Positions 6,650 through 52,877 of a stretch of DNA of 64,000 nt are shown here, piece after piece. Position 1 is the first letter of the stretch, and each line of letters starts with the position of its first letter. Source of the stretch: Malacoraja senta (lineage: Eukaryota); NCBI GenBank assembly GCA_038087875.1, contig CM075990.1:2358001-2422000 (forward strand), in the 5' to 3' direction. Below the pieces are notes generated by a model, which worked only from the letters and a program-made list of their open reading frames with translations, did not search any database and was not told the origin of the DNA. The position numbers and the translations under genes were made by a program.

Positions 6650-9600
6650 TAATGTAATTTCTGGAGAAAGAGATCAAAGTTTCACCCTCGACTGCAATCC
6701 TCTCCTCTGGAGAATAGATGCGTTTTTCCGATCTCGAGATTGGACTGCAGCATCTTAGAGTTCTTCCTGTGGCGCTAAGGAGATGTTTATTTGTTGTGAG
6801 ATCCTCAGGGACATTCATTAGACAGACAGGCTGGATGTGCTCGTGTCCTTGGAGATGCATTTCCTTATGAAATGCTTTCCCGATTTACTTCAGATTATTT
6901 TGTTTAAAACTGAGATTATACATTACAGAGAGCCACTGTTAAAGGGGCAGCGCAGAGTTCATGGAGATCGGGCAGACCCACTACCAGCTGCGTTAGTCAT
7001 GGTGTCGTACAGCACGGAGACAGGCCCTTCGGCCCAGCTTGTCCATGCTGACCAAGACGCCCCATCCACGCTGGTCTCGTTTTCCGGGCTTCAGCCCGTA
7101 TCTCTCTAAACCTTTCCTGTCCGTGCGCATGTCCAGGAATGAGAAGCTGTCTACAACCTGTCTGAGGAAGGGCCCCATCCCGAAACGTCACCCGTCTATT
7201 TCTCCAGAGATGCTGCACGACCCGCTGAGTTACTCCAGCACTTTGTGTCTATCTTGCATATTTCTGTCCAAATGACTTTAAAATGCTATTATTGTATCTG
7301 CCTCAACGACCTCCTTTAAATTAGTTTGGAGATACAGTGCAGAAACAAGCCTTTTCCCATGGGTCAGGATCATAAGGCCATTCCGGCCCATCAAGTCTAC
7401 TCTGCCATTCAATCATGGCTGATCTATCTCTCCCTCCTAACTCATTCTCCTGCCTTCCCCCCATAACCTCTGTCACCCCTACACCTTCCATCCACCGAGA
7501 CATCGTCTGTCCATTCCCTCCCCAGATGCTGCCCGACCCACTGAGTTCCTCCAGCACTTTGTGTTTTGCTCAAGATTCGAGCATCTGCAGTTCCTCGTGT
7601 CTCCATGAGCAAAATAATTCAATATTTAAATATTCAGTTACGTTTTCAATGGTGAAGAGGAGGCCTGTTGCACAATCCACACCTCTCACAATGCTGGTCC
7701 TGAACTCTTTGCTTAATTAAGTTTAGTATAGTTTAGAGATACAGCGCGGAAATATGCCCTTTGGCTTACTGAGTCCGCGCCGCCAGCGATCTCCGTGCAC
7801 TCACACTATCCTACACACGGCTCAATGTACAATTTTACCGAAGCCAATTAACCTAAAATCCTGCATGTCTTTGGAGTGTGGTAGAAAACCAGAGCACCCG
7901 GCGAAAACCCACGTGGTCACAGGGAGAATGTACAAACTCCGTACAGACAGCACCCGTAGTCAGGATCGAACCCTGGTCTCTGGCGCTGTGAGGCAGCAAC
8001 TCTACCCCTGCACCCCCGTGCTGCCCTTCTATTCAATACAACCAAATTGGCCGATAACAGAGGTGAATAAGAATATAACTAGTGTATAGGAAGGAACTGC
8101 AGATGCTGGTTTAAACCGAAGATAGACACAAAAAGCTGGAGTAACTCAGCGGGACAGGCAGCATCTCCAGAGGAAAGGAATAGGTGGTGTTTCGGGTTGA
8201 GACCCTTCTTCAGACTGAAATGAGAGATATAGACGGTGATATAGAGAGATACAGATTGAATTAATGAAAGATATGCTGTGGACTGGGTGAAAATGGGTTA
8301 CAGACAATGAGACTCAACAAGGCGATTTTAAAGATAGTTTAAGAAAGAACTACAGATGCTGAAAATCGAGAGGTAGACAAAAGTGCTGGAGAAACTCAGC
8401 GGGTGAGGCAGCATCTATGGAGCGAAGGAAATAGGCAACGTTTCGGGCCGAAACCCTTCTTCAGACTTTAAAGCTAGTATTACTTGGGAGAGATGGGGAG
8501 AGAGTGGATGCTTGATCTTCACTGACTGATATAACTAAATAATTAATAGTGGACGAAGGTGGCAATTCTCCTGCTGAGGATACTGGTGTCCCAGTCTACT
8601 TACTCGAGGATCAGGGATCCGTTTACACTATGTCTACCTCCTCCCCTGAGCCAGAAGCTAGCTTCATATTTAATCCCAGATGAACCGTAATCCTTCTGCT
8701 CCACTCCCCGACCATCTGATAGCATATTGTGTTTCATGTTGTGAAAAATTGAGAACTTATAATCTCCCTGGAGTCCTTTCGGCTGTGGGACCTCATAAAT
8801 AAACCATCAGGACAGTAATATGCCACTGCCCACATTTCATCCTTTCCTACATTCAGTTTGGAATCCTGTGCCTGTACAACTCACCAACTAACTATACTGC
8901 TCTGATTTCAGCTAACTAGTAGATTGACACAAAGTGCTGGAGTAACTCAGCAAGTCGGGCAGCATCTCTGGGGAGCAGGAATGGGTGACGTTTCGCTTCG
9001 AGACCAGTCTGAGTTACTCCAGCATTTAGTGTCCATCTTCGGTTTAAACCAGCATCTGCAGTTCCTTCCGCAGCAAAATATTAAGTTTAGTCACAGAGTC
9101 ATAGAGTGAAACAGTGTGGAAACAGGCCCTTCGGCCCAACTTGCCCATACCGGCCAACATATCCCAGCTACATTCGTCCCACCTGCCTGCACCTGGTCCA
9201 TATCCCTCCGAATCTAGTTTAGATACATAGATACATAGACAATAGGTGCAGGAGTAGGCCATTCGGCCCTTCGAGCCAGCACCGCCATTCAATGTGATCA
9301 TGGCTGATCATCCACAATCAGTACCCCGTTCCTGCCTTCTCCCATGTCCCTTAATTAGTTTAGTTTATTGTCACATGGACTGAAGTACAGCAAAAAGCTT
9401 TTTAGTAGCTCAGGAACTCTGCCGTGGCACCACCGTGGCGGCTACAGATATGTACCGCGCCATATATACGGATATGTTGGATGAATATGAGCTGATTAGT
9501 AAGTTTGCAGATGGAACAGCGATTATGGAGGAGTGTGACTAGTTCTCCTTCCTCACTAGCCACAAGATATAGGTCAGTTGGAAACGTAGGTGATTTATAG

Positions 9601-13683: not shown

Positions 13684-14009
13684 TCAGAACTACTACGTGA
13701 AATCAATGGTCAGCACGGACTCGATGGGCCGAAGGGCCTGTTTCCACGCTGTATCTCTCAAAAGAACTAAACTTAAAAGATAATTCTGAGGTTACCCTGT
13801 CTGTGTGAAGGGAATGGTTAGGTCAGGTCGGGGGGAGATCCCTCCTCCACGGGTACCATGTAATCCCGTGCTACCTGCTCCATGGTCGGATAGTCGACGA
13901 CTAAACCGTCTCCCCGCCTGGTTTGGCCAGGTGAGGAGGGGGCTGTGGACCCCCAGCAGGATTGCAGTCTGAGTTCAAGAACGTGAGCAGCATAGTTTAG
14001 TTTAGTTCA

Positions 14010-14105
14010 GTCTGAAGAAGGGTCTCGACCCGAAACGTCACCCATTCCTTCTCTCCAGAGATGCTGCCTGTCCCGCTGAGTTACTCCGGCATTTTCTGTC
14101 TACTT
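14010..14105 (+). mobile_element. Penelope-derived short terminal repeat with a minimal hammerhead-like motif (representative of many copies)
   Basis: GT-CTGAAGA-A-GGGT-CTCG-ACCC-GAAA-CGTC-AC. The same sequence terminates the GIY-YIG-encoding remnant at 46640-47540. Confidence 0.75.
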
Positions 14106-15209
14106 TTGGTTTAGTTTAATTTAGTTTAGAGAAATAGTGCGTAAACAGGCCCTTCAGCCCACTAATGCTGGCTGACGTGATCCCTGCACACTTGCACATC
14201 CCTACACACTATGTACAAATTACAATTTAACTGAAGTCAATTAACCTACTAACCTGTACGTCTTTGGTTCGTGGGATGAAACCGGGGCACCCGGAGAAAA
14301 CCCACGAGGTCACGGGGAGAACGTACAAACGGCATACAGACGGCACCCGCAGTCAGGATTGAACCCGGTGTCCCTGGCGCTGTAAAACAGCAACTCTACC
14401 GCTGCGCCACTGTGCCGCTCAAACCATCTTGGCTTGTTCTTGGTTGTCACTCCTGTGCAGGGCTGAAGGTGTGTCAATGTTCCAACTTCCAGATTGGGGA
14501 TTAAACTGAGGGTCTCGGCCCAAAACGTCACCCATTCCTTCTCTCCAGAGATGCTGCCTGTCCCGCTGAGTTACTCCAGCATTTTGTGTCTGTCTGTGTG
14601 CCTTCTGTGGCATTGAGCTTCACACACTGCTCAAAATCTGTCCTCACAACAGATGCCACATACGACCGGTGACCTGTTCATGGTCAGTTCGTGCAGTTGC
14701 TTGTGGGAACATGCTGTGCACAGTGTGCCTGTCATATGCTCACACAGCTCCAGCCAGCAAAAAAATCTTCCACCATAACCCTTATGAGGTAGGAAAGGTT
14801 TAGAGGGAATGGGCCAAACGCAGGCAAATAGCACCAGCACGGTGGCGCAGCGGTAGAGTTGCTGCCTTACAGCACCAGGGACCAGAGTTCAATCCAGACT
14901 ACAATTGTAGAAATCAAATGTAAGAATAAGGGTGTAGGACTGAGATGAGGAAAAACTTCTTCACCCAGAGAGTTGTGAATCTGTGAAATTCTCTGCCACA
15001 GAAGGCAGTGGAGGCCAATTCACTGGATGTTTTCTAGAGAAAGTTAGATTTAGCTCTTATGGCTAATCGAATCAAGGGATATGGGGAGAAAGCAGGAATG
15101 GGGTACTGATTCTGGATGATCAGCCATGTTCATATTGAATGGAGGTGCTGGCTCGGAGGGCCGAATGATCTACTCCTGCACCATTTTCTATGTTTTTATC
15201 TGTTTCTAA

Positions 15210-15392: not shown

Positions 15393-17109
15393 ACTGTCTG
15401 TATGGAGTTTGTGCGTTCTCCCTGTGACTACGTGGGTTTCCTCCGGGTGCTCCGGTTTCTTCCCACAATCCAAAGATGTGCAGGTTTGTAGGCTAATTGG
15501 CTTCTGTGTATAGGATATGAAACTACGCTAACATGGAACTAGTGTATGGGTGATTGATGGTCTTCCCAGGAAGTGCTTCAAGGCAGTTCACAGTCTGGAG
15601 TTGAGATGGAGGTTGTAGTATTCAATAGCCTGATGATTGCAGGGAAGACGAAGGTGTTCCCTAAACTGGGTGTTACAGTTTTCAGGCTCCTGTACCTTCT
15701 TCCCGATGGCAGGAGTGATATGAGAGCCAGGATGGTGTGGGTCTCTGATGATGAGGCAGCGACTGCCGTAGATCCCTTCGATAGCGGGGAGGTCAGCAGC
15801 TGTGATGGACCACTTTGCTCCATTAGTTCATGAACAATCCTCACATTACACGGTGGCGCAGCGGTAGAGTTGCTGTCTCACAGCACCAGAGACCCGGGTT
15901 CGATCCTGACTACAGGTGCTGTCTGTATGGAGTTTGTACGTTCTCCCCGTGACCACACGGGTTTTCTCCGGGTGCTCCGGTTTCCTCTCATATTTTGAAA
16001 GACATGCAGGTTTGTAGGTTAATTGGCTTCCGAAAATTGTCCCTAGTGTGTTGGATAGTGCTGGTATATGGGTGATTGTTGATCAGTGCAGATTCGGTGG
16101 GCTGAAGGGCCTGTTTCTATGCTGTAACTAAACTAAACTAAACTACACTATATGCACCCTGTTATGTGTCATGTTATGGAGGTGTATAAAATCATGAGAG
16201 GAATAGATCGGGTGGATACACAGACTCTCTTGCCCTGAGTAGGTGATTCAAGGATCAGAGGACATAGATTTAAGGTGAAGGGGAAAAGATTTCATAGGAG
16301 TCTGAGGGTAACTTTTTTCACACAAAGGGTGGTGGGTGTATGGAACAAGCTGCTGGAGGGTGGGACTATCCCAACCTTTTTAGAAACTGTTAGACAGGGA
16401 CATGGATATGACAGGTTTGGAGGGACATGCTGGCAAGTGTGGGCAAGTTGGGCCGAAGGGCCTGTTTCCATGCTGTATCACTCTATGACCAGACTGGTTC
16501 GTTGGTAAAATCACTCCTCTGGGATAATTTCAGCATCTTTGATGCCACCGAGCCAAGCACAGTGAGATTAAATGTGAGGACTGAGGAGACGGACACAAAA
16601 AGCTGGAGTAACTCAGCGGGACAGGCAGCATCTCTGGAGAGAAGGAATGTGCGATGTTTTGGATCGAGACCCGTCTTCAGTCTGATTCAGTCACCCGTTC
16701 CTTCTCTCCAGAGATGCTGCCTGTCCCACTGAGTTACTCCAGCTTTTTGTGTCTTTCTTCGGTTTAAACCAGCATCTGCAGTTCCGTCATACACAGGACT
16801 GAGGAGATGTGATTCTGAATGTCAAAGTTGTTCTGGCAAGTTGGCTGCTGGTGGGCCCCACAGCTTAAAGGTCAGTGTCCCTGATGTGAGCCACTGATGT
16901 GCTGCAGCTCCCCTATGAGATGAACTTAATCTCCAAGATGATGCGCAGTTCATCGAAGGAGCCGGCTTTGCACTCATCGCCCTCAGAGTGAGCCGTACAA
17001 TGAGACCACTCACGGACAAAGGTCACAGCATTCCTGGTACATATTTGAATGGGTGCGTGCGTGAGTCATGTAACATTTCTAAGCTCTTGCGAGAACCTTG
17101 TGTCCTGGT

Positions 17110-20500: not shown

Positions 20501-20679
20501 CTCGCTGTTTGCGCCCAGTTACGAGGCAGCGAGTCGACCGTCCGAGCCGAGAAGCGGAGAGTCGATCACCCAGGAAAACGAGAGGCAAATCTACAAGACG
20601 GTCCTAGAAGGCGGAGACATTCCCTTCCAGGGGCTGAGTGGGTTGAGCAAGAGAACGTCCAGCTCCTCTTCAACCAAAG
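20501..20679 (+). CDS. SORBS1: SORBS1 coding exon (SLFAPSY...ENERQIYKTVLEGGDIPFQGLSGLSKRTSSSSSTK)
   Basis: TTTTGCAG acceptor, AAG|GT donor, phase 2 to phase 1. The peptide matches the SORBS1 motif ENERQIYKSVLEGGDIPLQGLSGLKRPSSSASTK. Confidence 0.93.
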
Positions 20680-21544
20680 GTGAACATGCTCATAGCAGTT
20701 CCGTTTAGTTTGTAGTCACGCGTACCGAGGTACAGTGAAAAGCTTTTGTTGCGTGCTAACCAGTCAGCAGAAAGACAACACATGATTACAATTGAGCCGT
20801 TCCCAATGTATAGATACATAAGGGAATGGTGTCTAGTGCAAGGTAAAGCCAGTAAAGTCCGATCAAGGATAGTCCGAGAGTCATCAAAGAGGTAGATAGC
20901 AGCTCAGGACCGCTCTCTAGTTGTGGTAGGATGATTCCATTGGGAAACAGCTGGGAAGAAACTGTAGCAACTGATAATAGCTGGGAAGAAACTGTCCCTG
21001 AATCTGGAGGTGTGCGTTTTCACACTTCTGTACCTTTTGCCCGATGGGAAAGGGGAGAAGAGGGATTGGCCAGGGTGAGACTGGTCCGTAATCATGCTGG
21101 CTGGCCTTGCCGGGGCAGGGTGAGGTGTAAATGGAGTCAATGGAAGGGAAGTTGGTTTGTGTGATGGTCTGGGCTGCGTCCACAATTCACCCAAATGTCC
21201 ATCAGTGGTTTATCCAGACCCTCGCGTCTACTTGTTACTGACCTGCCCGTCAACGGGAACTCACCCCAATGGAGGGTGGGCATGTGAATGGATGAATACT
21301 TTATTGTTACATGGGACTAGTCACAGTGATATTCTTTGTTTGCATTCTCGAGGTATGCAAAGAGTGGCCACATAAAGGGCGCTGACAAAGTTACAAAGTA
21401 TCCCGTGCCGGGTCCTCCTTTGTTCTTTTGCCCCCCTCCCCCCCTCACAGCAGTCCCCCCACATCGGGTCCTTCTTTGTACTCCCCCCCCCCTCCCACCC
21501 ACTCCCCCCCCCCCACCCCATCACGGGCGTTCAATCTGGCTGAG

Positions 21545-22290
21545 AATCTCCATCCACGGTTTATTCACAACATCTTGCATAAACAACTGTGTAGATGTCT
21601 TTCCTTTGTACCCCTCCACCTCACCTCAACAAGTTCCGGGCCTATCATGACATACATCTCTTCTTCTGTCGCCTCCGTGCACTCGCCTGCCCCACCCCCC
21701 CACCCTTGTCATGTCTTCCATCATCCCCCCTGACCGCCCCCTTTCCGACACGGAACGGTCTGACCTCAGCAGAGGCCTCACTTTTGTTCCCCTCCGCCCC
21801 CCCTCAACGAGTTCCAGGCCCGCCATGATGTCGAGCTCTTCTTCCGTCGCCTCCGCATCCGGGCCTTTTTCCTCATGTCCCAGTGGCGATCCCATCTCCC
21901 GTCTCCAACATTCCACGTCCTCTGCGATTCCCCTCCGTGCCTGCCTTCTACCCTCTCTGGACCTTTCTATTTCCATTTGCCAGCGTGACGTCAACTATGT
22001 TGACCTCTTCACTCCCCTCACCCACTCCAACCTCACCCGCTCTGAACACACAGCCCTCTGCTCACTCAGCCCCCCCTCCCGACACTGTTATTAAAGCTGC
22101 CGACAAGGGGAGGTGCTCTTGTAGTCTGAGGCCAGTCACCAGCTCTCGGACACTTCCTCATCCCCATCCCTTGACCATGACCCCCCAGATGAACATCAAG
22201 CCACCATCTGACAAGCTGTTGGAAGAAGGGTCTTGACCTGAAACGTCACCTACCATGTTCTCCGTAGATGCTGCCTGACCCGCTGAGTTA
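21545..22290 (+). mobile_element. Penelope-like element 5' ORF remnant plus terminal repeat
   Basis: IPPDRPLSDTERSDLSRGLTFVPLRP and VIKAADKG motifs, typical of the PLE pre-RT region. Confidence 0.7.
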
Positions 22291-23746
22291 TTCAAGGGTC
22301 TGAGCTATAGGGAGAGGTTGAGTAAGCTGGGTCACAATTCCTTGGAGCGCAGGAGGATGAGGGGTGATCTTATAGAGGTGTATAAGATCATGAGAGGAAT
22401 AGATCAGATAGATGCACAGTCTGTTGCCCAGAGAATGGTGAATCGAGAACCAGAGGACATAGGTTTACGGTGAACGGGAAAAGATTTAATCAGAATCTGA
22501 GGGGTAACCTTTTCAAACAAGGGGTGGTGGTCATATGGAATAAGCCAGAGGAGGTAATTGAGGAGGGGACTATCCCAACTTTTAAGAACAGTGAGACAGG
22601 TGCATGGATAGTGTGTGTGAAGGAACTGCAGATGCTGGTTTAAACCAAAGATGGACACAAAATGCTGGAGTAACTCAGCGGGACAGGCAGCGTCTCTGAA
22701 GAGAAGGAATATGTGACGTTTCGGGTTGAGACCCATTCTTCAGACATGGATAGGATGGATTTGGAGGGATACGGGCCAAATGCGGGCAGGTGGGACCAGA
22801 GTAGTTGGGACGTTGGGCAAGTTGGGCTGAAGAGCCTGTTTCCATGCTGGATCACTCTATGCCTCGGTATCACTTTGTGTCCTTTTATGTAGATGTTCAC
22901 TGAAGGTTTCGCCCCTTCCCTTTGGTTTTGCTGGAGCCAGTGGACCTTCAATGTTAAGATGCAGAGCTCGTGTCCTGATAACGCTTCAATGGTTGGAAAG
23001 CACAAGATTTCGTAATTTAGTTTAGTTTGGAGTTACAGCGTGGAAACAGGCCCTTCAGCCCACCAAGTCCGTACTGACCAACAATCACCCCGTACACTGG
23101 CACTGTCCTACACGCTAGGGACAATTTACAATTTACAGAGGGACAATTAACCTACATATCTGCACCTCTTTGGAGGGTGGGAGGAAACCGGAGCACCCGG
23201 AGATAACCCATGGGGTCACAGGGAGAAGGTGCAAACTGTATAGACAGCACCCGAGGTCAGGATTGAACCCGGGTCTCTGGCGCTGTAAGGCAGCAACTCT
23301 ACCGCTGCACCACCGAGCTGCCCATAATGTCTGGGTTGTTTGTGGTGCTGGTATAGGAATTGCACAAACTTGGGTCAATAGGAGGATCTATATATTCCTG
23401 GCATGGGCAGTTTAGCAATGTGATTCAGAGCCAAGGATTGGAGTTTGACTTCATCTCCAAGCTAGTTTCCATCACGACCCATCAGTCTTCTCACCAGCCT
23501 TCAACCCACCATATACTCAGTGGGACTGAATGAACAGGTTGTGGACCGGGCAAAGTTTATGTGCAGCTTGCTTCTACCATGAGGTCCATGTAGCAACACA
23601 CACAAGGAGGCAGCAGAGTGCAGCCTATCCCCTGCATTGATAATAACCTTCCATTGACTACATACAACAGCGGACCACAAAACCTCCCCTGACCATTCAT
23701 GTCTGGCATTGCAGGCTTACTAACTAATTGTCGTTTCACACACTTA

Positions 23747-24053
23747 AGGGTCTGTCCCACTGTACGAGGTAATTCAAGAGTTCTCCCGAGTTTCCCCTGA
23801 TTCGAACTCGGAGAATTACGGTAATAGCCGTTCGTAGGTACCCGGGGCTCTCGTGGACATTTTTCACAGTGCTGAAAAAACTTCACGAGTTTCCGCGTTT
23901 CCCGAGTACCTGCCGTTAGTATTACGAGCCGCTACGAGACATCCACGAGCTCCAACGTAGCCGCTACGTACATTCTACGTACTTACCACGAGTTTGATTT
24001 TTTTTTAAACTCGGGAGAGCTCTTGAATTACCTCGTACAGTGGGACAGGCCCT
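23747..24053. mobile_element. PIF/Harbinger-like MITE, TTA TSD
   Basis: TIRs AGGGTCTGTCCCACTGTACGAGGTAATTCAAGAG / CTCTTGAATTACCTCGTACAGTGGGACAGGCCCT, with TTA on both sides. Confidence 0.9.
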
Positions 24054-24909
24054 TTATCCTCAAACTGAAGGATAGTTAATGGCAAAAATATACTGGAATA
24101 ACTCAGCGGGTCCAGACAGCATCTCAGGAGAAAAGGGTCGAGACCCTTCTTCAGACAGAGATTTTTAATGGCCTTCCTTTATTTAAGAAGGGACCTATTC
24201 CTATACTGCCTGAACGTCAGAGTTACTCCAGCATTTTGTGTCTAACTGCAGTTTAAACCAGCATCTGCAGTTCCTTCCTACACAATCTGGATCGAAAATA
24301 GGCTTGGTGATATGGATTTGAGAAGGGCAGCAGAGATGAACAAGCTGGTGGATCTTAATCAGAGGAGTAAATCTATGGGGAAAATCCAGAGGGGTGGGAT
24401 TTACTCTTGGAAAGGCAGGGGTTGGGTGGGAATAGTCAACACGGCTTTGAGTGAAGAAAATTCTACCTCCCTAATTTCAGTGTAGTTTAGAGATGCAGTG
24501 GGGAAACAGGCCCTTCGGCCCACCTAGTCCGCACTGACCAGCGATCCCCGCACATGAACACTATCCTACACACACTGGGGACAATTTTACATTTACACCA
24601 AGAGAATTAACCTACAAACCTGTACGTCTTTGGAGTGTGGGAGGAAACCGGAGATCGCGGAGAAAACCCACGCAGGTCACGGGGAGAATGTAGAGACAGC
24701 ACCTGTAGTCAGGATCGAACCCGGGTCTCTGGCGCTGCAAGGCAGCAACTCTACCGCTGCACCACCGTGCCACCCTTGATTGAAGAGTTAACTATGATGA
24801 TTGATGAAGGCAGAACAGTAGGCATTGTCCACTTGGATGTAGTGAGGCTTTTGACAAGGTTCCAAGTGATAGGGTGGTACAGATGGTTAAGGTACATGGG
24901 ATCCAGGGC

Positions 24910-25335
24910 AAACAGCCAGGCGGCCACCTCATATTTCGCTTGGGCAGCTTACACCCCAGCGGGATGAATATTGATTTCTCAAAGTAACCCTTGCATCCCC
25001 TGACTCTCTGTCCCTCCCCCACCCTAGTCATACGAGTTTCACTGTTGTCCTGTTGAGTTTCACCGTCTGTATAACTCGTTATCACCGAGCCCACAGCCAA
25101 CAATGGACCATTGTGGGCTCCACCTTTTTTCACATCTTTCATTCATTAGGTCTATATCTCTCTCTATCACCGTCTACATCTCTCGTTTCCCCCTCCCCTG
25201 ACTCTCAGTCTGAAGAAGGATCTCAGCCCAAAACGTCATCCATTCCTTCTATCCAGAAATGCTGCCTGACCCGCTGAGTTACTCCAGCTTTTTGTGTCTA
25301 GCTTTGGTTTCAACCAGCGTTTGCAGTTCCTTCCT
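24910..25335 (+). mobile_element. Penelope-like element 3' end with terminal repeat
   Basis: HLIFRLGSLHPSGMNIDFS endonuclease C-terminus, then the ctgaagaagg..aaacgtc repeat. Confidence 0.75.
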
Positions 25336-25832
25336 ATATAATCTGGATCCAAAATTGGCTTGGTGATTTGGGGGCAGAATGTAGAGGTGTATAGATGTTT
25401 TTCTGCTTGGAAGTCTGTGACCAGTGGTGTACCATGAGGATCTGTACTGGGACCCTTGTTTGTGATATATATTTACGACTTGGATATGAATGTACGAGGA
25501 ATCATTAGAAAGATTGCAGGTGACAGAAAAGTTGGTGGTGTTGTGGAAAGTGAGGGAACTTGTCAAGAAAAAAGATTTTAGTTTTTATACACAAAGGGTG
25601 GTAGGTATATGGAACGAGCTGCCGGAAGAGGTAGTTGTGGCAGTTACTTAGTTTAGGGTTTAGATATACAGCACGGAAACAGGCCCTTCGGCCCACTGAG
25701 TCCTCACAGACTGTTACACTAGCACACTAGGAACAATTTAAACCAAAGCCAACTAACCTACAAACCTGTACATCTTCGGAGTGTGGGAGGAAACCAGAGC
25801 AGGCGTGGTCACGGGGAGAATATACAAACTCA

Positions 25833-26803
25833 AGAGAGCTTATTGTCATGTGTCCCTGATAGGACAAACAAATTCTTGCTTTGCTTTAGCACAACAGAAC
25901 ATAGTAGGCATGAATACAGAACAGAGCAATGTGTCCATATACCATTATATAAATATATACACACATGAATAAATAAACTGATAAAGTGCAAATAATGGGC
26001 TATTAATGATCAGAGTTTTGTCCGAGCCAGGTTTAATAGCCTGATGGCTGTGGGGAAGTAGCTATTCCTGAACCTGGTCGTTGCAGTCTTCAGGCTCCTG
26101 TACCGTCTACCTGAAGGTAGCAGGGAGATGAGTGTGTGGCCAGGATGGTGTGGGTCCTTGATGATACTGCCAGCCTTTTTGAGGCAGCGACTGTGATAGA
26201 TCCCCTCGATGGAAGGGAGGTCAGAGCCGATGATGGACAGGGCAGTGTTTACTACTTTTTGTAGTCTTTTCCTCTCCAGGGCGCTCAAGTTGCTGAACCA
26301 AGCCACGATGCAACCAGTCAGCATGTTCTCTACTGAGCACGTGTAGAAGTTAGAGAGAGTCCTCCTTGACAAACCGACTCTCCGTAATCTTCTCAGGAAG
26401 TAGAGACGCTGATGTGCTTTCTTTATGATTACATCAGTGTTCTCAGACCAGGAAAGATCTTCAGAGATGTGCACGCCCAGGAATTTGAAGCTCTTGACCC
26501 TTTTCACCATCGACCCGTTGATATAAACAGGACTGTGGGTCCCCATCCTCCCCCTTCCAAAGTCCACAATCAGTTCCTTGGTTTTGCTGGTGTTCAGAGC
26601 CAGGTTATTGTGCTGGCACAATTTGGCCAGTCGGTCGATCTCACTTCTATACTCTGACTCGTCCCCATCAGTGATACGTCCCACAACAGTGGTATCATCA
26701 GCGAACTTGTTGATGGAGTTCGCACTATGACCGGCTACGCAGTCATGAGTATAGAGTGAGTACAGCAGGGGGCTGAGCACGCAGCCTTGAGGTGCCCCCA
26801 TAC
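25833..26803 (-). mobile_element. 5'-truncated Rex1/Babar-like LINE (RT C-terminal 263 aa still open), nested in a SINE
   Basis: GAPQGCVLSPLLYSLYTHDC...KFADDTTVVG RT motifs. SINE halves flank it at ~25650-25832 and ~26823-26900. Confidence 0.92.
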
Positions 26804-27504
26804 TGATATATAGTCTATATGGTCCATATAGACAGCGTCCGTAGTCAGGATCGAACCCCGGTATCTGGCGCTGTGAGGCGGCAACTCTACCGCTGCCCCT
26901 ATTGCACCATTTAAGAGAAATCTGGACTGGTACATTGAAAGGACAGGTTTAGAGGGATATGGGCCCAGCGCTGGCAGGTTGGGACTAGTGTAGATGGGAC
27001 ATGTTGGTGGGCATGGACAAGTTGGGCTGAAGTGCCCATTTCCACACTGTAGCACTCTATGACTCTAAGTTGGAAGGAAAGTTGGGTGGGATGATGGCAG
27101 ATAGACTTTAATCCACACATGTGTGAGGTGATGCATTTTGGTTGATCAGGGAAAAGTCGAAGAAAGACATATGCAGTAAGTACTGAGGAATGATAATGAA
27201 CAGGACCTTGGGTTTCAAGTCCATAGTTCCCTGAAAATGCCAGTGCAGATGTATAGAATGGTGTAGAATGGATATATAGAGTGATACAGCGTGGAAACAG
27301 GCCCTTCGGCCCAACTTGCCCACACGGACCAACCTGTCCCATCTACAGTGGTCCCACCTGCCTGCATTTGACCTATATCCCTCCAAACCTGTCCTATCCA
27401 TGTACTTGTCTAACCATTCCTTAAATGTTGGGATAATCCCAGCCTCAACTACCTCCTCTGGCAGCTCGTTCCACACTGTGAAAAGGTTACCCCCTCAGCT
27501 TCCT

Positions 27505-28072
27505 ATTGTACAGAGCCCTAGTGAGACCACACCTGGAGTATTGTGTGCAGTTTTGGTCCCCTAATTTGAGGAAGGACATTCTTGCTATTGAGGGAGTGCA
27601 GCATAGATTTACAAGGTTAATTCCCGGGATGGCGGGACTGTCATATGCTGAGAGAATGGAGCAGCTGGGCTTGTACACTCTGGAGTTTAGAAGGATGAGG
27701 GGGATCTCATTGAAATATATAAGATTGTTAAGGGCTTGGACACACTAGAGGCAGGAAACATGTTCCCAATGTTGGGGGAGTCAAGAACCAGGGGCCACAG
27801 TTAAAGAATAAGGAGTTAGCCATTTAGAACGGAGACGAGGAAACACTTTTTCTCACAGAGAGTTGTGAGTCTGTGGAATTCTCTGCCTCAGAGGGCGGTG
27901 GAGGCAGGTTCTCTGGATGCTTTCAAGAGAGAACTAGATAGGGCTCTTAAAAATAGCGGAGTCAGGGGATATGGGGAGAAGGCAGGAACGGGGTACTGAT
28001 TGGGGATGATCAGCCATGATCACATTGAATGGCGGTGCTGGCTGAATGGCCTACTCCTGCACCTATTGTCTA
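27505..28072 (+). mobile_element. CR1-type LINE 3' fragment
   Basis: LYRALVRPHLEYCVQFWSP motif and CR1 3' UTR. Nearly identical to 62020-62455. Confidence 0.9.
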
Positions 28073-29143
28073 TCTCTTTTATTTTTTAAACGTACCATGA
28101 CAAATTAATCTGCGTGCATGAGATCCACACCTTACTATTCCCTGCATATCCATGTGTCTATCTTAAATCCTTTTAAACGCTATTGTATCTGCCTCCACCA
28201 CCACTCATGGCAGTACATTCCAGGCAGCTACCACCCTCTGTGTTTAAAATAAATTTGCCCTGCACATATTGCTTAAACTTTGCCCTTTCACCTTTGAGCT
28301 GTGCCCTTTAGTCTTTGATATTTTCATCCTGGGGAGAAAAGGCTTTGACTGTCTACCTTGTCTACGCCTCCCATCATTTTATATACTTCTATTAGATCTC
28401 TCCTCAGCCTCCGACGCTCCAGAGGACACAATCCAAGTTTGTCCAACCTCTCCGTGCAGCAGGCAACGTTTTGGTCAACCGCTTCTGCCCCCCCCCCCCC
28501 CTTCTCCAAAGCCTCTCCATCCCTATCCTCCCTGCATTGGGGCAACGGGAACTGCATACAATGCCACGAATGTGGCCAAAGTGAAATCCGCGTCATGACT
28601 GCCTGACTCCTATACTCAAAGTGTAAGGAGGACCTGCAGATGCTGGTTTAAACCGAAGACAGACACAAATATCTCAGCGGGTCAGGGAGCATCTCTGGAG
28701 AAAAGGAACAGGTGACATTTTGGGTCGAGACCCTTCTTTAGACTGAGAAACGGGAGAAAGGGAAACTAGGGATATAGACAGGAAATAGGAGAAATAATGA
28801 GCAAAAAGCAATGATAATCAAGGATAGGTGGAGCCCACAATGGTCTATTGTTGGCTGTGGGCTCGGTGATAACGAGTTAAACAGATTTATACTCAATGCC
28901 CTGACCGATGAGGCAAATATACCATATGTCCTCTGTTCCACTCTTATCCACCCGTGCTGCCATTTTCAGGGCTATTGACTTGTACCCCAAGGTTCCTGTG
29001 TATGTTAGTACTGTTAAGGGTCTTGCCATTAGCTGTTCGTTTTATCCATTGATAATGGTGAGATGGTTCGGATGTGTATACAATAGTTTACTAACACGTT
29101 TTATTCTAACATTTGTGTCTGTTCTGTTCCGCATGCTTTCCAG

Positions 29144-30563
29144 TGGATACTAAAGGTGGGAAAGGCCACAGCATTTCAACTATGTCAGTTAATAGTACAG
29201 CAGATATCTCTAGTTCTGTGCTAAGCTATAAATGTAGGTCCAATAAGTCCCTATCGGCAGCAAAAGCCTGCATATTTGAAATCCTTCCCACTAAGTTCAA
29301 ACCCAAGTTACCTGTAAATGTCATTCTGCCCCAGGATAGAGAGAGTGTCTCTCCACAGAGGGCACAGAGCTGTGAGAACCTTCTTGGTGATGACTACCAG
29401 CTGCACAACAGGAGAGCGGTGGTGAAGGAGACCGGGCAGAGCTGTGAGTCCCTCTTGGTCAAAGAGGCAGAGGAGCCATCTCTTTGTTTGAGTGATGAGC
29501 GGAGAGCGCAGGAGTTGGATGGCGCTGCGAGAAGATGCCCGTTCCCACACGGCCTTGTTGATGATGCTGCCCACTTTACCCAACCTGGAGTCAACGTGGA
29601 CCGGATCAGTGGGCCGGTGCCCCCGCCAGTGGAGTCCCGGTTGGAGTGCGGTCCACGGGTCGGGGACGAGCGGGGTAGGGTCCGGGGGGAGTCGGACGGC
29701 CCCCTGTGGTCTTCCGTGTCCTCCAGGGGTCAGTCAGTTTGAGCAGATCATCCAGAGGTCCCAGTCGATGCCTTCGCTGAATCTGGGCAGCGACTCGACG
29801 GCGTGCAAGAGCCCGCTGCCCTCTCCCTCCGTGCCATACATGCAGCTGGCACAATCGGCCGAGTCGCTCTTAGACCTCCCGCCTTGGGGCAAGGAGACCC
29901 TAGCCGACGTGCAGATCACCGTCCACCAGGCTTCAGCCTCAGGCAGCGAGGTGGAGGAGGTGGCTTCAGGCCACGGTGAAGTGGTGGTCTCCGAGACGCC
30001 CTCTCCTTGCCCCGACCCCGAGCTCGTCTTCCTGTCCACCCTCTCGGGGGACATCTGTGCCAACAGGCGGCCATCCCTCACCACGCACGATGCCAGCCAA
30101 CACAAGGAACCCCTCCTCACCTCTGGCACCAGCTTCGCTGCCCTTCCCCGGCACGTGGGACCTGCAGACCACCAGCCGGCTACGCCATGTCAACCGCTCC
30201 CTCTCTCCAGGAACCTCTACCTCCTGAGTCCAAGGCCATTCAGGCTCAAAAGGCCCTCTCTGCACAAGTTCCGAAACCCTTTCACCTTGGTGGACTCGGC
30301 CAGCCAGACCGAGGTGGAGGACAAGGCGGGAGGTTTGCTGGCAAGACCAGTCGCGCTGAGGCGGCAGCCCAACGCCAAGCCGCCCCACCCCACCCGCACG
30401 ACTTCCTTCAACGTCGTGGAAGCGCTGAGACGCTCGGCTGTAACCACACCTGCCCGAGATGGCGGCATCTCAGGTTCTGATCTCTCTAATGGAAGCCGTG
30501 CACCATTGTGTGCGCCCGGTCCAAATCGCAGCCGGCGCAGCGAAGTGGAGATGTTTCCTCAAG
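29144..30563 (+). CDS. SORBS1: SORBS1 large alternative (cassette) exon, ~473 codons, with an apparent 1-bp frameshift at 29726-29729
   Basis: TTTCCAG acceptor in phase 1 gives VDTKGG...LSAAKACIFEILPTKFKPKL...AQSCENL. The second frame continues VSQFEQIIQRSQSMPSL. A candidate donor AAG|GTGGAC at 30563/30564 is phase 1, and 1420-1 nt is divisible by 3. The 3' boundary is uncertain because the ORF runs on to 30697. Confidence 0.75.
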
Positions 30564-33500
30564 GTGGACCTTCCAGTATCTCAACAACGCTCTGTCTCTC
30601 TGCACTCTCTCTTCCTGTGTTTCTACTCCAACATCTACCTCCCCCCCCCCCCAATCTACAAGTCCCAGCATGTGGTCTTCATCTCTGGAGTCAGTGATGT
30701 TACTTCTCCTTGGAGTCTCTGCTGTTCCTCCCTGTTTGACACCATAATCCTCTTGCAGAGAGTGGATGTGGAGAGGATGTTTCCACCAGTGGGAGAGTCT
30801 AGGTCCAGAGGTCATAACCTCAGAATTAAAGGACGTTCCTTTAGGAAGGAGATGAGGAGGAATTTTTTAGTCAGAGGGTGGTAAATAAGTGGGAATCGTT
30901 GCCACAGACGACTGTGGAGGCCGTCAATGGATATTTTTAAGGCAGAGATAAATAGATTATTGATTAGTACAGGTATCGGGCAAGAAGGCAGGAGAATAGG
31001 GTTAGGAGGGAGAGATAGATCAGCCATGTTTGAATGGCAGAGTAGCCTTGATGGGCTGAATGGCCTAATTCTACTCTTATCACTTATGAACTTGTGAACA
31101 TGACTTGTTAGGCACAAAGTGCTGGAGTAACTCAGTGAGTCACACAACATCTCTGGAGAACATGGATAGGTGACGCTTCAGGTTGGGACCCATTTTCTCC
31201 AAAGATGCTGCCTGACCTGTTGAGTTACTTCAGCTCTTTGCGTCTATCTTTGGTAGAGTCTGAAGAAGGTTCCCGACCCAAAACGTCACCTATCCTGTTT
31301 CTCCAGAGATGCCGCCTGACCCACTGAGTTACTCCAGCACTTTGTGTCTATCTTTGGTATAAACCTGCATCTGCAGTTCTACTTTTTTACTCGAGTCGTT
31401 GACTGCCTGTGGTCAGTTTGCCCATTAAGTAAAGAAGTATTTTATGATCCTGGTCTCAAGATCACATATTGCCAGCTTAGAAAGCCCCTGGTGTACAACT
31501 AATAGCAACTCGGTATGAAATTGGTGATTCAGGAATCCCGTGGTCATGGAAACAGAAGACCCTCCCCCCAGTTGAAATGGTCACCCTAACCGCTCTTGCA
31601 TCTTACGGTCCCACCCAAACATTTAGACTGAATCTTTACCCTAGCTCTCAATACATTGACACTGGAGTGTTAGGGGGTCCTAACTCACAAATTGCAACTA
31701 CCCTTTCTCTAAGTCACGGTCGATACAAGATCTACCTTAATAAAAGATACAGTAACTTTTACAATTGCAATGTTTAAGAAGCATTTAGACAGGTACAGGT
31801 TTTCGAGGGATATGGGCCAAAACATAGGCAGATGGGACTAGTGTAGATGGGGCATGTTGGTCGGTATGGGCCGAAGGACCTGTTTCCAGGCTGTATGGCT
31901 CTCTAACCTCATATTCCGCTTGGGTAGCTTACAACCCAACTGTATGAACTTTGAATTCTACAAACCCTCGCCCTATCCTTTCTTCCCTCAACATCCCCTC
32001 CTCCATTCCCTCCCCCCTCCTCCCCTGTGCCCCTCCTATTTATCCCATCAACCACCTCCATTCCTTGCACTAGCTTCACAATTTGTAACTCTTTAATCCT
32101 TTTGTCTCACACCTTTTTGTCGCACAGTTGCGCAGTGGTAGAGTTGCTGCCTTACAGCGGTAGAGTTGCTGCCTTACAGCAACAAAGATCCCGTTCAATC
32201 CTGACCAGACTGCTCGGAGTTTGTACGTTCTCTCTCTGCGAGGGTTTTCTCCAGATGCTCCACTTTCCTCCCACATTTCAAAGACGTGCAGGTTCATAGG
32301 TTAATTGGCTTCTGTAAATTGCCCCCTAGCATAGGGTGATCAATGGTCGGCGTAGACTTGGTGGGCCGAAGGACCCGTTGCCACGCTGTATCTCTAAACT
32401 AATCCCTAAAGCAAACTAAAACCTTCCATGTTTCCATCTGTCTTTTGTCCATCATCTGCCATCAACCCCCCCCCCCCACCTCACCTGTATCAACCTATTA
32501 CCTGCAAGGCTTTTTCCTGCCCCTCCTCTCTACCAGCTTCCTTCCCCTGTCCCTCTTACAATCAGTCTGAAGAAGGGTCCCAACACGATACGTCATCTAT
32601 CCATGTTCTCCAGAGATGCTGCCTGACTCGCTGAGTTACACTAGCAATTGATGTCTTCCCATAGTCATGTTATTGAATGTAAAGATGTGTGTATATACGT
32701 CTATGTATATAGGTTCACACTGACACATAGACCATTAGGTGGTTACCTCTTGGTAGCTTGTTTGCCTAGACTTGGTTGGTATTTATTGCTGGCTTTAGCA
32801 GCCAGTTACTCAAAATCTACCTACACAAATTAGTGGCACAGCGGTAGAGTTGCTGCCTCACAGAGCCAGAGACACGGGTTCGATCCTGACTACGGGTGCT
32901 GCCTGTATGGAGTTTGTACGTTCTCCCTGTGACTGCGTAGATTTTACCCGGGAGCTCCGGTTTCCTCCCACACTCCAAAGATATACAGGTTTGTAGGTTA
33001 ATTGGCTTGGTAAAATTGTAAATTGTCCCTAGTGTATGTGGGATGGTGTTAATGCGCGGTGATCGCTGGTCGGCGTGGACTCTGTGGGCAGAAGGGCCTG
33101 TTTCCACACTGTATCTATAAACTAAACTAAATTAAACTAAAAATAAACTAGAGTTGGCTTTTAAATGCTTGGTCCAGGATGGTTTCTCTCAACCGTCATC
33201 TTAAGAGAAGTAGAGACGTGGAAAAATATAGGGAGGGAATTGACTTTAGTTTATTGTCACGTGTAGCGAGGTACAGTGAAAAGCTTTTGTTGCGTGCTAA
33301 CCAGTCAGCGGAAAGACTATACATGGTTACAATCGAGCCATTCGCAGTGTATACATACATGATAAGGGAATAACGTTTAACGCAAGGTAAAGCTGGTAAA
33401 GTCTGATCAAAGACAGCACGAGGGTCACCAAAGAGGTAGATAGTAGATCGGGACTGCTCTCTGGTTGTGGTAGGATGGTTCAGTTGCCTGATAACAGCTG

Positions 33501-34302
33501 GGAAGAAACTGTCCCTGAATCTGGAGGTGTGTTGCCGGGTCCACAGCTGCCGGAAGTGGGAGATGGAAACTGGGAACGTTCGGGGTCTGGAATTAAAGGA
33601 ATGCTGATTCAGGAAGCTGGAGCGACAGAGATTGTTCCAATGGTGAGGGGAACTGGACTGTAGAGAGATTAGGCAAAGGGATAGGGGTTTTATTACGCTT
33701 GATGTGTTACTGGACCAGTAGTTACCGATTATTAGCTTTGTTTTAACCAGGTCCCTGAATGTTGGGTTCAAAAGGGCAGGTAGTGGATGTTGTAGATAAG
33801 CTATCAAGGTTCACACTGGTAAGTGGCGATATAGGTGATTAAAGCAAGGGGGCTTCACCACTCCTCTTTACACCCTCTTTATACCCTGAGTAGGTCATGA
33901 GTATAGTTGGGAGACAGACACAAAATGCTAGAGTAACTCAGCGGGTCAGGCAGCATCTCTGGAGAACAGGAGTAGGTGACATTTCGGGTTGAGACCCTTC
34001 TTCAGGTGCTTCTTCAGAAGTTGGGAGGTCATGTTACAGTTGTATAAGACATTGTTGAGGCCACATTTAGAGTATTGTGCTCAGTTTTGGTCGCCATGTT
34101 CTAGGAAAGATGTCGTCAAGCTGGAAAGGGTGGAGAGAAGATTTACAAAGACGTCGCCATGTTTCAAGGGCCTGAGCTACAGGGAAAGGTTGAAAAGGCT
34201 AGTTCTTTATTTCTTGGAGTGCAGGAGGACGAGGGGGTGATATTATAGAGGTGTACATTATCATGAGAAGAATGCATTGGGTAGACGCATAGAGTCTCCT
34301 GG

Positions 34303-34502
34303 NNNNNNNNNNNNNNNNNNNNNNNNNNNNNNNNNNNNNNNNNNNNNNNNNNNNNNNNNNNNNNNNNNNNNNNNNNNNNNNNNNNNNNNNNNNNNNNNNN
34401 NNNNNNNNNNNNNNNNNNNNNNNNNNNNNNNNNNNNNNNNNNNNNNNNNNNNNNNNNNNNNNNNNNNNNNNNNNNNNNNNNNNNNNNNNNNNNNNNNNNN
34501 NN
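34303..34502. other. Assembly gap (200 N)
   Basis: Run of N in the sequence. Confidence 1.
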
Positions 34503-35385
34503 TTTTGACTTTACATCTGCCACTTGTCTGACCATCTGCCTATCAGCTAAATCCCTCACCCGTGTCAACCTATCACTTGCCAGGTTTTGTCTTGCCCCCA
34601 TCTGTCTTCCAGCTTTCTCCCCCTTCCGCCCCACGACAATCAGACCGAAGAAGGGCCCTGACCCGAAACGTGACCTATCCATGTTCTCCAGTAGAGTTGC
34701 TGCCTTACACCGCCAGAAATGTTTTACAGCCCGGGTTCGATTCTGTCTGTACATTCTCCCTGTGACCACATGGGTTTTCTCCAGGAGCACCGGATTCCTC
34801 CAAAGACATACAGATCTGTAGGTTAATTGTCCCCGGTGTGTACGATAAAACTAATGCACGGGGATTGCTGGTCGGCATGGACTCGATGGGCCGAAGGGCC
34901 TGTTTCCACGCCTTATTTCTGAAGTCTAAAGATGCTGCCTGACCCTGCTGAGTTACTCCGGCATGAGGAGGAATATCTTTAGTCAGTGGGTGGTGAATCT
35001 GTGGAATTCATTGCCACAGGCGGCTGTGGAGGCCAAGTCAATGGATATGCGACTCTGGCTCGAAGGGCCGAATGGCCTCCTCCTGCACCTATGATATTTT
35101 TGATATCTGATATTTTTAAGCTAGGTGGAAACCAAAGATCTCGGAAAAACCCCACGCAGGTCAGGAGGAGAAGGTACAAACTCCGTACAGACAGCACCCG
35201 TAGTCGGAATCGAACCGGGGTCTCCAGCGCTGCAAGCTCTCTAAGGCAGCAACTCTACGCGCTGCGCCACTGTTTAGTTTAATTTACAGATGCAACGCAG
35301 AAACAGACCCTTTGGCTTAATTTTGCTCCCTGAACCTCTGACGTTTTTGTTTTTTATCTTCTATCGCTGATTTTCCCCGTTACAG

Positions 35386-35511
35386 CTGCTGCCTCCAACG
35401 GAGCGGGCGCAACCCAAGAAGCCCCCGCCCCTGCAGGTGTTGGAGTACGGTGAAGCCGTGGGCCGCTTCAACTTCGCCGGCGACACGCACGTGGAAATGT
35501 CCTTCCGAAAG
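35386..35511 (+). CDS. SORBS1: SORBS1 exon: SH3-1/SH3-2 linker and start of SH3-2 ([42 protein letters not shown])
   Basis: TACAG acceptor, AAG|GTGAG donor, 126 nt, phase 0-0. Strong match to SORBS1 [38 protein letters not shown]. Confidence 0.96.
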
Positions 35512-35667
35512 GTGAGGAGCGGGGCGATCCCGGCCATTCGTGGTTTGCCGACAGAGGGATGGGCTGGAATGGTCGGCTCTGTGGGCTGGCACAGACTCAA
35601 TGGGCCGAGCGGCCGCCTACCGCTTCACAAAAATGGCCCCATTCGGGCAAGTGTGATCATTAAGGGG

Positions 35668-36002
35668 AGCACGGTGGCGCAGTGGCAGAGTTGCTGCCTT
35701 TCACCGCTTACAGAGCCACAAACCCTGGTTCAATCCCGCCTACGGGTGCTGTCTGTATGGAGTTTGCACGTTCTCCCCGTGACCTGCGTGGGTTTGCTCC
35801 GAGATCTTCGGTTTCTTCCCACACTCCAAAGACGTACAGGTTTGTAGGTCAATTGACTTGGTATATATGTAAATATGTATGTACGTAAAAATTGTCCCTA
35901 GTGTGTGTAGGATAGTGTTAGTGTACAGGGTGGTCGCTGTTCTGCACGGACTCGGTGGGCCGAAGGGCCTGTTTCAGCACTGTATCTCTAAACTAAACTA
36001 AA
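35668..36002 (+). mobile_element. HE1-like V-SINE
   Basis: Full-length copy with CTAAA tail. Confidence 0.88.
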
Positions 36003-38543: not shown

Positions 38544-38705
38544 AGGGCCTGTCCCACTTACGGGATTTTTTCAGCGACTTGCTGAGACCCGGCATAGTCG
38601 CAGCAGGTTGCCGAAAAATGTCAAAATGTTGGACATCCACCGGTGACCAGAAAAAGGTACGACTCTTTGGGCGACTACTCACGGCCACACAGGCGTCATG
38701 TGTCG
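38544..38705. mobile_element. Truncated Harbinger-like MITE (left arm only), related to 44180-45287
   Basis: TAA + AGGGCCTGTCCCACTTACG... and shared internal gtacgactctttgggcgactactcacg. Confidence 0.8.
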
Positions 38706-39232
38706 GCATGTCCAGTGCATTCCAGGCACCCTCTGTCTAAAAAACGTGCATCTCCTTTGAAACTGTGCTCGACATCCACTTTGTGTTGCTTTCAGAATTA
38801 AAGGACGTTCTGTTTGGACGGAGATGAAGAGGAAAATCTTTAGTCAGAGGGTGGGAATTCTTTACCACAGAAGGCTGTGGAGGCCAAGTCAGTGGATATA
38901 TTTAAGGAAGAGATAGATAGATTCTTGATTAGTACGGGTGTCAAGGGTTATGGGGAGAAGGCAGGAGAATGGGGTTTGGAGGGAGAGATAGATCAGCCAT
39001 GGTTGATTGGCGGAGTAGACTTGATGGGCCGAATGGTCTAATTCTGCTCCTATCACTTACGACCTTATGGCTTTTTCCTCCAGCAGTATCTTTTTTAAAA
39101 ATCAAGATTCCAGCATAGGTCGTGTTGGGGTCAGGAGGGTGGTCTCGAGCACGCGTGTGCCACCCTGGAACACGTGTGTATTCTGCGTGATGGCCATTCA
39201 TTCTTCCTCTCCTCCCCCCCCCCTCCCCGCAG

Positions 39233-48167: not shown

Positions 48168-49223
<1,056 letters not shown>

Positions 49224-52520: not shown

Positions 52521-52556
52521 GTAAGTACTCTCTACATCTCCTTCATTGTTTGGTGG

Positions 52557-52860: not shown

Positions 52861-52877
52861 TCATCGTCTGCTTTCGT

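What the first reader, a model, noticed from the sequence alone, without database searches (positions are those of the whole stretch)
14010..14042. Dispersed Penelope-derived repeats each carry a minimal hammerhead-ribozyme-like motif
Seen: one of the commonest short repeats here reads GU-CUGAAGA-A-GGGU-CUCG-ACCC-GAAA-CGUC-AC. That is the hammerhead core boxes CUGANGA and GAAA around a 4-bp helix II with a tetraloop, a palindromic ACGU in place of helix III, a GUC triplet and only ~2 bp of helix I. Good copies on + are at 14010, 42471, 47421 and 50796, and on - at 8435-8466 and 37101-37132. More than a dozen degenerate copies also occur (e.g. 1831, 7161, 19655, 22715, 25208, 31258, 32565, 53579). 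It directly follows Penelope GIY-YIG remnants at 25208, 47421 and 50796, but most copies stand alone. Known: Penelope-like elements carry minimal type I hammerheads proposed to work as dimers. Inference: a highly amplified non-autonomous, retrozyme-like family in this lineage places many potential self-cleavage sites inside a host pre-mRNA.
Basis: partly seen in the sequence, partly recalled or inferred. Interest (0 to 1): 0.7.

Follow-up and report, generated by a model that had tools for sequence, protein, structure and literature searches.

The report
Penelope retroelement end-pieces with minimal hammerheads
The motif is a real but already described "minimal hammerhead" ribozyme that sits at the head of the terminal repeat of a Penelope-like jumping gene, and its dozens of short copies in this ray or skate gene look like inert by-products of that element's copying, not a separate ribozyme family that cuts host RNA.

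Summary
The motif heads a ~134-nt unit with 51 copies in the window (0 in a reversed control). It is the minimal type I hammerhead (min-HHR) described in 2014 in pseudo-LTRs (pLTRs) of Penelope-like elements (PLEs). The parent has a Neptune-type Cys linker and GIY-YIG nuclease. Support: non-CpG core positions are better conserved than the rest of the unit (95% vs 86%), and 40 distinct relatives from other hosts covary in helix I. 'Retrozyme-like' is not supported: there are no tandem arrays and no canonical hammerhead. Copies show PLE hallmarks instead: two 3' ends about 40 nt apart (the 'tail'), head-to-head pairs and 8-13-nt target duplications. Their 5' ends pile up at the ribozyme's 5' edge, not at its cleavage site, here and in reads from related animals. 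They look like run-off copies of uncleaved RNA. Only 7 of 20 complete motifs are intact, none folds as a hammerhead in context, and SORBS1 introns show no sense-strand depletion (26:21). Cleavage was not tested. The scan found this kind before in three other shark windows. Known kind, new host family; the sharp 5' boundary is the only fresh point.

The parts
14010..14042 (+). Minimal type I hammerhead motif (2-bp helix I, CUGAAGA, extra A, 4-bp helix II, GAAA, palindromic ACGU, C17); predicted cleavage 14039|14040
14009..14113 (+). Short pLTR-type copy carrying the motif; starts at the motif's 5' edge, lacks most of the tail, lies inside a (GTTTA)n tract
46538..47215 (+). Broken PLE ORF end: CX3CxxC linker and GIY-YIG nuclease remnant (Neptune-type)
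   Evidence: tblastn, about 50% identity to Mobula protein P0002
47216..47542 (+). 3' UTR followed by pLTR unit (hammerhead at 47420) and tail
50508..50928 (+). GIY-YIG C-terminus, UTR, unit 50795-50928 with tail; reference stretch for the read lay
24925..25340 (+). GIY-YIG C-terminus, UTR, unit 25207-25340
63252..63933 (-). Linker and GIY-YIG remnant joined by an internal deletion to a unit that lacks its first ~16-21 nt
21723..22296 (+). N-terminal PLE ORF fragment fused to a unit that begins at position 5-6
16586..16795 (.). Head-to-head pair (tailless arm on -, tailed arm on +) inside one 13-nt target duplication; 1 of 8 such pairs
22612..22745 (-). Complete unit (positions 2-134) with a 9-nt target duplication
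40622..40792 (.). Fold-back pair centred on helix II; source of the spurious Rfam miRNA hits
8336..8467 (-). Intact copy of a second subfamily (GUU/G site, UUCG loop)
37059..37133 (-). Intact motif with short UTR
42470..42588 (+). Intact motif (GUU/G site) with UTR and tail
20502..58679 (+). Host gene SORBS1: exon matches at about 20502, 29143, 35356, 39230, 42906, 47797, 50196, 52330, 55649 and 58614; copies in this span are intronic

Best explanation
The motif is the min-HHR of the pseudo-LTR of a Neptune-type Penelope-like retrotransposon of a cartilaginous fish, probably a batoid. Shown: the motif, its link to a GIY-YIG ORF end, its conservation, and the copy anatomy. Inferred: (1) the element's RNA begins at or next to the hammerhead's 5' edge, where the sequence fits an initiator (consensus recalled, not tested). 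(2) The PLE protein nicks DNA and starts reverse transcription inside the RNA at two sites, about 95 and 134 nt from that end, as shown for Poseidon of Anolis. (3) When this happens on the 5' pLTR, the enzyme runs off after 95-134 nt and leaves short dead-end copies, often as head-to-head pairs; on the 3' pLTR it leaves 5'-truncated copies with UTR and ORF. (4) The copied RNA was uncleaved. (5) The hammerhead works, if at all, as a dimer or with the PLE protein's help on element RNA; the solitary intronic copies are inert passengers.
For: Parent: 11 of 51 copies extend into a shared UTR, 3 of them to GIY-YIG remnants. 104 of 122 long homologues carry CX2-5CxxC before the YIG motif. Structure class: 24 of 40 distinct metagenome relatives have helix I >=3 bp, against 7.3 in shuffles (0 of 10000); N17 is H in 123 of 125. 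In 14 of the 15 loci (of 122) with a nuclease hit, it lies 116-637 nt upstream on the same strand. Core conservation 0.949 vs 0.863; no non-CpG core position has a variant shared by 4 or more copies. Anatomy: 3' ends are bimodal, 18 at 90-99, 22 at 120-130 and 2 between, of 51; 8 inverted pairs; flank repeats >=8 nt in 9 of 28 insertions vs 17 of 500 random. 5' ends: 18 of 39 UTR-less copies start at positions 1-6 (p=2e-9), 2-3 of 51 near the cleavage site. In 4 of 4 runs laid, the top loose ends include 50794-96 and 50922/50928 and not 50825/26. Inertness: helix I probability <=0.001 in 7 of 7 intact copies; strands 26:21. Precedent: PMC11167929, PMC4209133.
Against: No cleavage, start site or RT start was measured. 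Inside this family there is no compensatory covariation: 288 of 500 shuffles reach the score. Core G12 and C11.1 are only 74% conserved (CpG decay), and non-core segments 51-58 and 109-116 are as conserved as the core. Helix I (2 bp) is shorter than in most relatives. One search lists only the top 6 loose ends per run (2200 not shown), so a smaller pile at the cleavage site is not excluded; part of the 50794 pile is other subfamilies' UTRs. Head-to-tail joints of 126-135 nt exist in those runs (5-19 contigs per joint in X17/X18). No full-length element of this family was seen. Neptune rests on the linker, not an RT tree, and Nematis shares the linker.
Confidence: 0.75

Rival explanations
1. 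The 134-nt unit is a non-autonomous element in its own right (SINE- or retrozyme-like): it carries its own promoter, is transcribed alone, and is moved in trans by the Neptune protein.
For: Fixed ends with target duplications. The unit is 7-15 times deeper than the nuclease region in reads. Head-to-tail joints occur. One subfamily's 6 of 6 copies lack UTR. bioRxiv 10.64898/2026.07.22.740005 derives retrozymes from pLTRs and reports some in one chondrichthyan.
Against: No tandem array in the window; 1 partial tandem among 51 copies. 95% of polyA reads run on into unlike sequence. In Anolis the protein needs RNA beyond the RT start sites, which short copies lack. Other subfamilies occur both with and without UTR.
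Confidence: 0.13
2. The sharp 5' boundary is not the start of transcription but a processing or stalling point: a 3' splice site (pyrimidine tract plus CAG) ending at helix I, as in Drosophila virilis Penelope, or an RT block at the protein-bound hammerhead.
For: UTR-bearing copies show a pyrimidine run ending in CAG at unit positions 0-2. PMC4209133 states that the D. virilis intron ends at the 5' end of helix I.
Against: Spliced copies should begin at position 3 behind a common exon. Loose ends at 50795-96 have no common upstream sequence (agreement 0.31-0.34), and position 3 is among the top six in only 1 of 4 runs. The reference laid lacks the likely donor, so a splice joint could not show.
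Confidence: 0.15
3. The motif in this lineage is a catalytically dead remnant, kept for promoter or protein-binding reasons.
For: Helix I is only 2 bp; no covariation within the family. The core strand is predicted to pair with the downstream pyrimidine run. The D. virilis promoter is internal (passages). Uncleaved RNA is the substrate in Anolis.
Against: Every catalytic position, the extra A, G10.1-C11.1 and the palindrome are kept; subfamily changes fall in loop II, give G-U pairs or give another allowed H17. The same core covaries structurally in relatives.
Confidence: 0.2
4. Intronic sense copies cleave the SORBS1 pre-mRNA, alone or as long-range dimers, with a regulatory effect.
For: 4 of the 7 intact copies are on the sense strand; three lie 3.4-5.0 kb apart.
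Against: Folding is unfavourable in 7 of 7 intact copies; there is no strand bias. Published single min-HHRs showed no cleavage.
Confidence: 0.04

Closest known systems
Minimal hammerheads (min-HHR) in pLTRs of metazoan PLEs (Cervera and De la Pena 2014, PMC4209133)
   Same: Type I, no helix III, palindromic 15.2-16.2, extra base after A9, G10.1-C11.1, located in the pLTR, mostly solitary copies of truncated PLEs.
   Different: Helix I is 2 bp here (4-5 bp in Schistosoma; 2 bp also in D. virilis) and helix II is 4 bp. No chondrichthyan appears in the text or in the 2 supplementary files searched; file 1 was not searchable.
Poseidon PAc of Anolis carolinensis (Frangieh et al. 2024, PMC11167929)
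   Same: Hammerhead a short way upstream of two internal RT start sites that bound the tail; uncleaved RNA is inserted; no reads at the cleavage site.
   Different: Poseidon clade; its ORF begins at stem II, whereas here no frame is open through the unit in most copies. A pile-up of 5' ends at the hammerhead edge is not mentioned in the parts read.
Neptune clade PLEs (as described in Craig et al. 2021, PMC8557442)
   Same: C-terminal GIY-YIG with CX2-5CxxC linker, 5' truncation, inverted 5' copies, 30-40-bp tail at one end, microsatellite insertion.
   Different: No RT tree was made; very high density of pLTR-only copies (0.8 per kb here).
Non-LTR retrozymes (Cervera and De la Pena 2020, PMC7229834; bioRxiv 10.64898/2026.07.22.740005)
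   Same: Non-coding, type I hammerhead, pLTR-related, long target duplications.
   Different: Those are tandem repeats of 150-450 bp with canonical, efficiently cleaving hammerheads and circular RNAs; these copies are solitary or inverted and carry the minimal motif.

Membership tests
PLE min-HHR | CUGANGA, GAAA and UH core around helix II | tested here: met
   7 of 20 complete copies intact
PLE min-HHR | Extra base after A9, G10.1-C11.1 pair, palindromic 15.2-16.2 | tested here: met
   A9a 32/35, G10.1 38/39; ACGU
PLE min-HHR | Located in the pLTR downstream of a PLE ORF | tested here: met
   (3 copies behind GIY-YIG ends, plus 63369 by deletion)
PLE min-HHR | Compensatory changes in helices | tested here: inconclusive
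   met across relatives; not above shuffles within this family
PLE min-HHR | Self-cleavage as dimer or with protein | not testable with these tools
   needs an in vitro assay
Neptune-type PLE | CX2-5CxxC linker before a C-terminal GIY-YIG | tested here: met
   also in 104 of 122 long homologues; shared with Nematis
Neptune-type PLE | RT phylogeny within Neptune | not tested
   no core RT in the window; no named reference set
Neptune-type PLE | 30-40-nt tail at one end; inverted 5' copies | tested here: met
Non-LTR retrozyme | Tandem repeats with a hammerhead in consecutive units | tested here: not met
   1 partial tandem among 51 copies; minority tandem joints in other genomes
Non-LTR retrozyme | Canonical type I hammerhead with helix III and loop 1-loop 2 contacts | tested here: not met
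Non-LTR retrozyme | Abundant monomeric circular RNA | not testable with these tools
   only a polyA library was available

The most novel reading that the evidence does not exclude
In batoids the Neptune RNA starts exactly at its hammerhead, so that initiator, ribozyme and a paired RT-start domain (unit 51-58 with 109-116) form a self-contained 134-nt module. The module has become a mobile mini-element with fixed ends and occasional head-to-tail copies, an intermediate between pLTR and retrozyme. Its very many fossils would map the RNA's 5' end and both RT start sites at base resolution, and would show that cleavage plays no part in integration.
Probability: 0.15. Interest if true: 0.55.

Novelty: new member of a known kind. 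Interest (0 to 1): 0.25.

Why it matters
As a ribozyme it is ordinary: min-HHRs in PLE repeats, mostly as solitary copies, have been known since 2014. The modest value is mechanistic. What the PLE hammerhead does is still called unclear (PMC8557442), and this very abundant family records where copied RNAs began and ended. If the 5' pile-up holds genome-wide and the cleavage site shows none, it extends the Anolis in vitro result (uncleaved RNA, two internal starts) to a second PLE clade in vivo. It also warns that such motifs in shark and ray introns should not be counted as active ribozymes.

Tried and rejected
Own genome: none held, so there is no genome-wide count or intron test in this species. 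Rfam: no hammerhead among 21 weak matches; the miRNA hits come from inverted pairs and microsatellites. Pattern scan of viral contigs: 0. Pfam on 6 window PLE fragments: 0 of 6; they were identified through homologues instead. No RNA holder listed on record. No pile of molecule starts or ends in the polyA run, and its strand balance is uninformative because strandedness is unknown. Unit as coding sequence: one frame is open in copy 50795, but 33 of 49 copies have A at position 63, which makes a stop, and the unit's translations have no meaningful match among 267 proteins; rejected. Covariation within the family: none. Sequence look-up in earlier findings: nothing. Lunse et al. 2017 is not held. 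Literature: 'Penelope + cartilaginous + hammerhead ribozyme' gave 0 papers; 'hammerhead + Penelope + shark' gave 4, of which 1 is on ribozymes and names the shark only for the shape; 'solo pLTR' occurs in 0 of 13 listed; one search's listing showed nothing on this family. Supplements I could not see (PMC4209133 file 1, the figures of PMC11167929, the bioRxiv tables) may already show chondrichthyan examples or the 5' boundary.

Full report
Observation. They head a longer unit. A profile built from 11 copies finds 51 copies (27 +, 24 -) and none in the reversed window; they cover 7.7% of the window. Of the 20 copies that span the whole motif, 7 pass a strict descriptor (core, helix II, palindrome, 2-bp helix I). 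The other 31 copies lack part of the motif in the alignment and were left out of this count. Rfam gives no hammerhead match.

Host. SORBS1 exons match on + from 20502 to 58679. The N-terminal 924 residues of the best homologue do not match in the window, so 14010 probably lies in an upstream intron, in sense orientation (inference). The best named homologues are from Pristis, Chiloscyllium and Mobula, so the host is a cartilaginous fish, probably a batoid. No whole genome is held.

Parent element. Eleven of the 51 copies extend into a shared pyrimidine-rich UTR. Three of them (25207, 47420, 50795) reach the end of a GIY-YIG ORF about 190-225 nt upstream; 63369 is joined to one by a deletion. 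The remnants are about 50% identical to Mobula proteins that score RT and GIY-YIG below Pfam's cut-offs. They carry CX3CxxC before the nuclease. Of 122 long homologues, 104 have CX2-5CxxC there. PMC8557442 (passages) gives this linker as the mark of Neptune and Nematis; I made no RT tree. An N-terminal ORF fragment at 21723-22223 is fused to a unit starting at position 5-6.

Is it a hammerhead? PMC4209133 (text parts 1-2 of 4; 2 of 3 supplements searched) defines the min-HHR by the core, an extra base after A9, G10.1-C11.1 and a palindromic 15.2-16.2; all are present. In the window, non-CpG core positions match the majority base in 371 of 391 cells, against 2325 of 2695 for positions 34-92 (per-position test p=4e-4; copies are not independent). 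No non-CpG core position has a variant shared by 4 or more copies. The two CpG core positions fall to 63 of 85. Helix I was not in the pattern, yet 24 of 40 distinct flank combinations form 3 or more pairs, against 7.3 in shuffles (0 of 10000), and N17 is G in only 2 of 125. Fifteen of the 122 loci hit the window's nuclease; in 14 it lies upstream on the same strand. Against: inside this family the 13 long copies aligned show no covariation beyond shuffles, helix I is 2 bp, and segments 51-58 and 109-116, which can pair, are as conserved as the core (355/376, 188/201).

Anatomy of the copies. 3' ends fall in two groups, 18 at positions 90-99 and 22 at 120-130, with 2 between; complete copies end at about 134. 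There are 8 head-to-head pairs, typically one tailless and one tailed arm; 16586-16795 lies within one 13-nt duplication. Flank repeats of 8 nt or more occur in 9 of 28 insertions examined, against 17 of 500 random pairs; two of the nine are doubtful (a microsatellite, an adjacent copy). These are the PLE features listed in PMC8557442. PMC11167929 (text parts 1-2 of 4; supplement search empty) explains them: RT starts at two internal sites that bound the tail, the ribozyme cleaves only with protein, and unprocessed RNA is the main substrate.

The 5' boundary. Of the 39 copies without UTR or ORF, 18 start at positions 1-6 and 28 at 1-12 (p=2e-9 and 4e-13 against a uniform spread over 1-66). Two or three start near the cleavage site (29-33). 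Caveats: the profile begins at position 1, upstream homology was judged only against UTRs in the window, and some copies are duplicates or partners. Laying 4 of the 23 listed runs (other, related organisms) on 50480-50960 gave the same picture. Top loose ends lie before 50794-50796 (unit positions 0-2) and behind 50922/50928 in all four runs. The cleavage site (50825/26) is not among the six shown per run; 2200 rows were not shown. Joints link the 5' edge to the opposite strand at positions 85-89, and the tail back to the 5' edge (126-135 nt; 5-19 contigs per joint in X17/X18). Peak depth over the unit is about 7-15 times that over the nuclease end. In the polyA run, 13,350 of 7.3 million reads were laid, 95% ran on into unlike sequence, and no pile of molecule ends appeared; this fits passive transcription but proves little.

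Mechanism. Most likely the RNA's 5' end lies at the hammerhead edge, and RT started at either internal site runs off there. The sequence fits an initiator (consensus recalled, not tested); the D. virilis promoter is internal (PMC2377424, passages), and transcription from the upstream pLTR is described in PMC6765202 (passages). The copied RNA was uncleaved, since the whole motif is retained. A splice site or RT block at the same place is the main rival: a pyrimidine tract and CAG precede the motif, and the D. virilis intron ends at helix I.

Effect on the host. In 200-nt context, helix I has probability of at most 0.001 and the hammerhead fold costs 4.2-9.4 kcal/mol in 7 of 7 intact copies; helix II forms in only 1 of 7. 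The core strand often pairs with the downstream pyrimidine run. Strands upstream of the stop codon are 26 sense and 21 antisense (p=0.56), and 4 of 7 intact copies are sense. Published single min-HHRs did not cleave. Folding models ignore proteins and tertiary contacts.

Comparison. It works like, and meets the testable features of, the PLE min-HHR. It fails the retrozyme features of tandem arrays and a canonical hammerhead (PMC7229834, passages). The bioRxiv preprint 10.64898/2026.07.22.740005 (parts 1-3 of 5; supplements closed) already reports retrozymes and PLEs in a sample with one chondrichthyan, and pLTR-derived monomers. PMC6155905 was seen as passages; Lunse et al. 2017 only as a reference. 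My searches found no paper on this family, but unseen supplements and unheld journals may cover it. Three earlier notes of this scan on other shark DNA reached the same class; they are not independent support.

Verdict. Real motif, known kind, new host family, probably inert here. Interest 0.25.

Noticed in passing
unit positions 51-58 and 109-116 (e.g. window 50845-50852 and 50903-50910): Two highly conserved, complementary 8-mers enclose the inner 3' end; candidate RT-start structure. Predicted by RNAalifold but without covariation.
   Followed up: partly
unit positions 35-55 (e.g. window 14043-14063): Pyrimidine tract, AG and then ATG: a second acceptor-like site inside the unit, which could drive exonisation of sense copies.
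   Followed up: no
window 39230-39387 and 29143-30601: SORBS1 exons show frameshifts against homologues, probably assembly errors.
   Followed up: no
window 36141-36557 and 37468-37887: Local 420-nt duplication (93%) that includes one unit copy; these two copies are not independent insertions.
   Followed up: partly
window 26010-26948 (-): 312-aa frame with RVT_1 and ALKBH8_N matches: a LINE remnant of another kind.
   Followed up: no
window 14110-14444 and about 30 other places: Another ~300-nt dispersed repeat with some 30 copies; the 14010 copy sits in the (GTTTA)n tract at its edge. Family not identified by a call.
   Followed up: no
L039, L084, L094, L032: Head-to-head min-HHR pairs and two 3' end classes also occur in the metagenome host loci, but their 5' ends are more scattered.
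   Followed up: partly
window 34303-34502: 200-N assembly gap.
   Followed up: no
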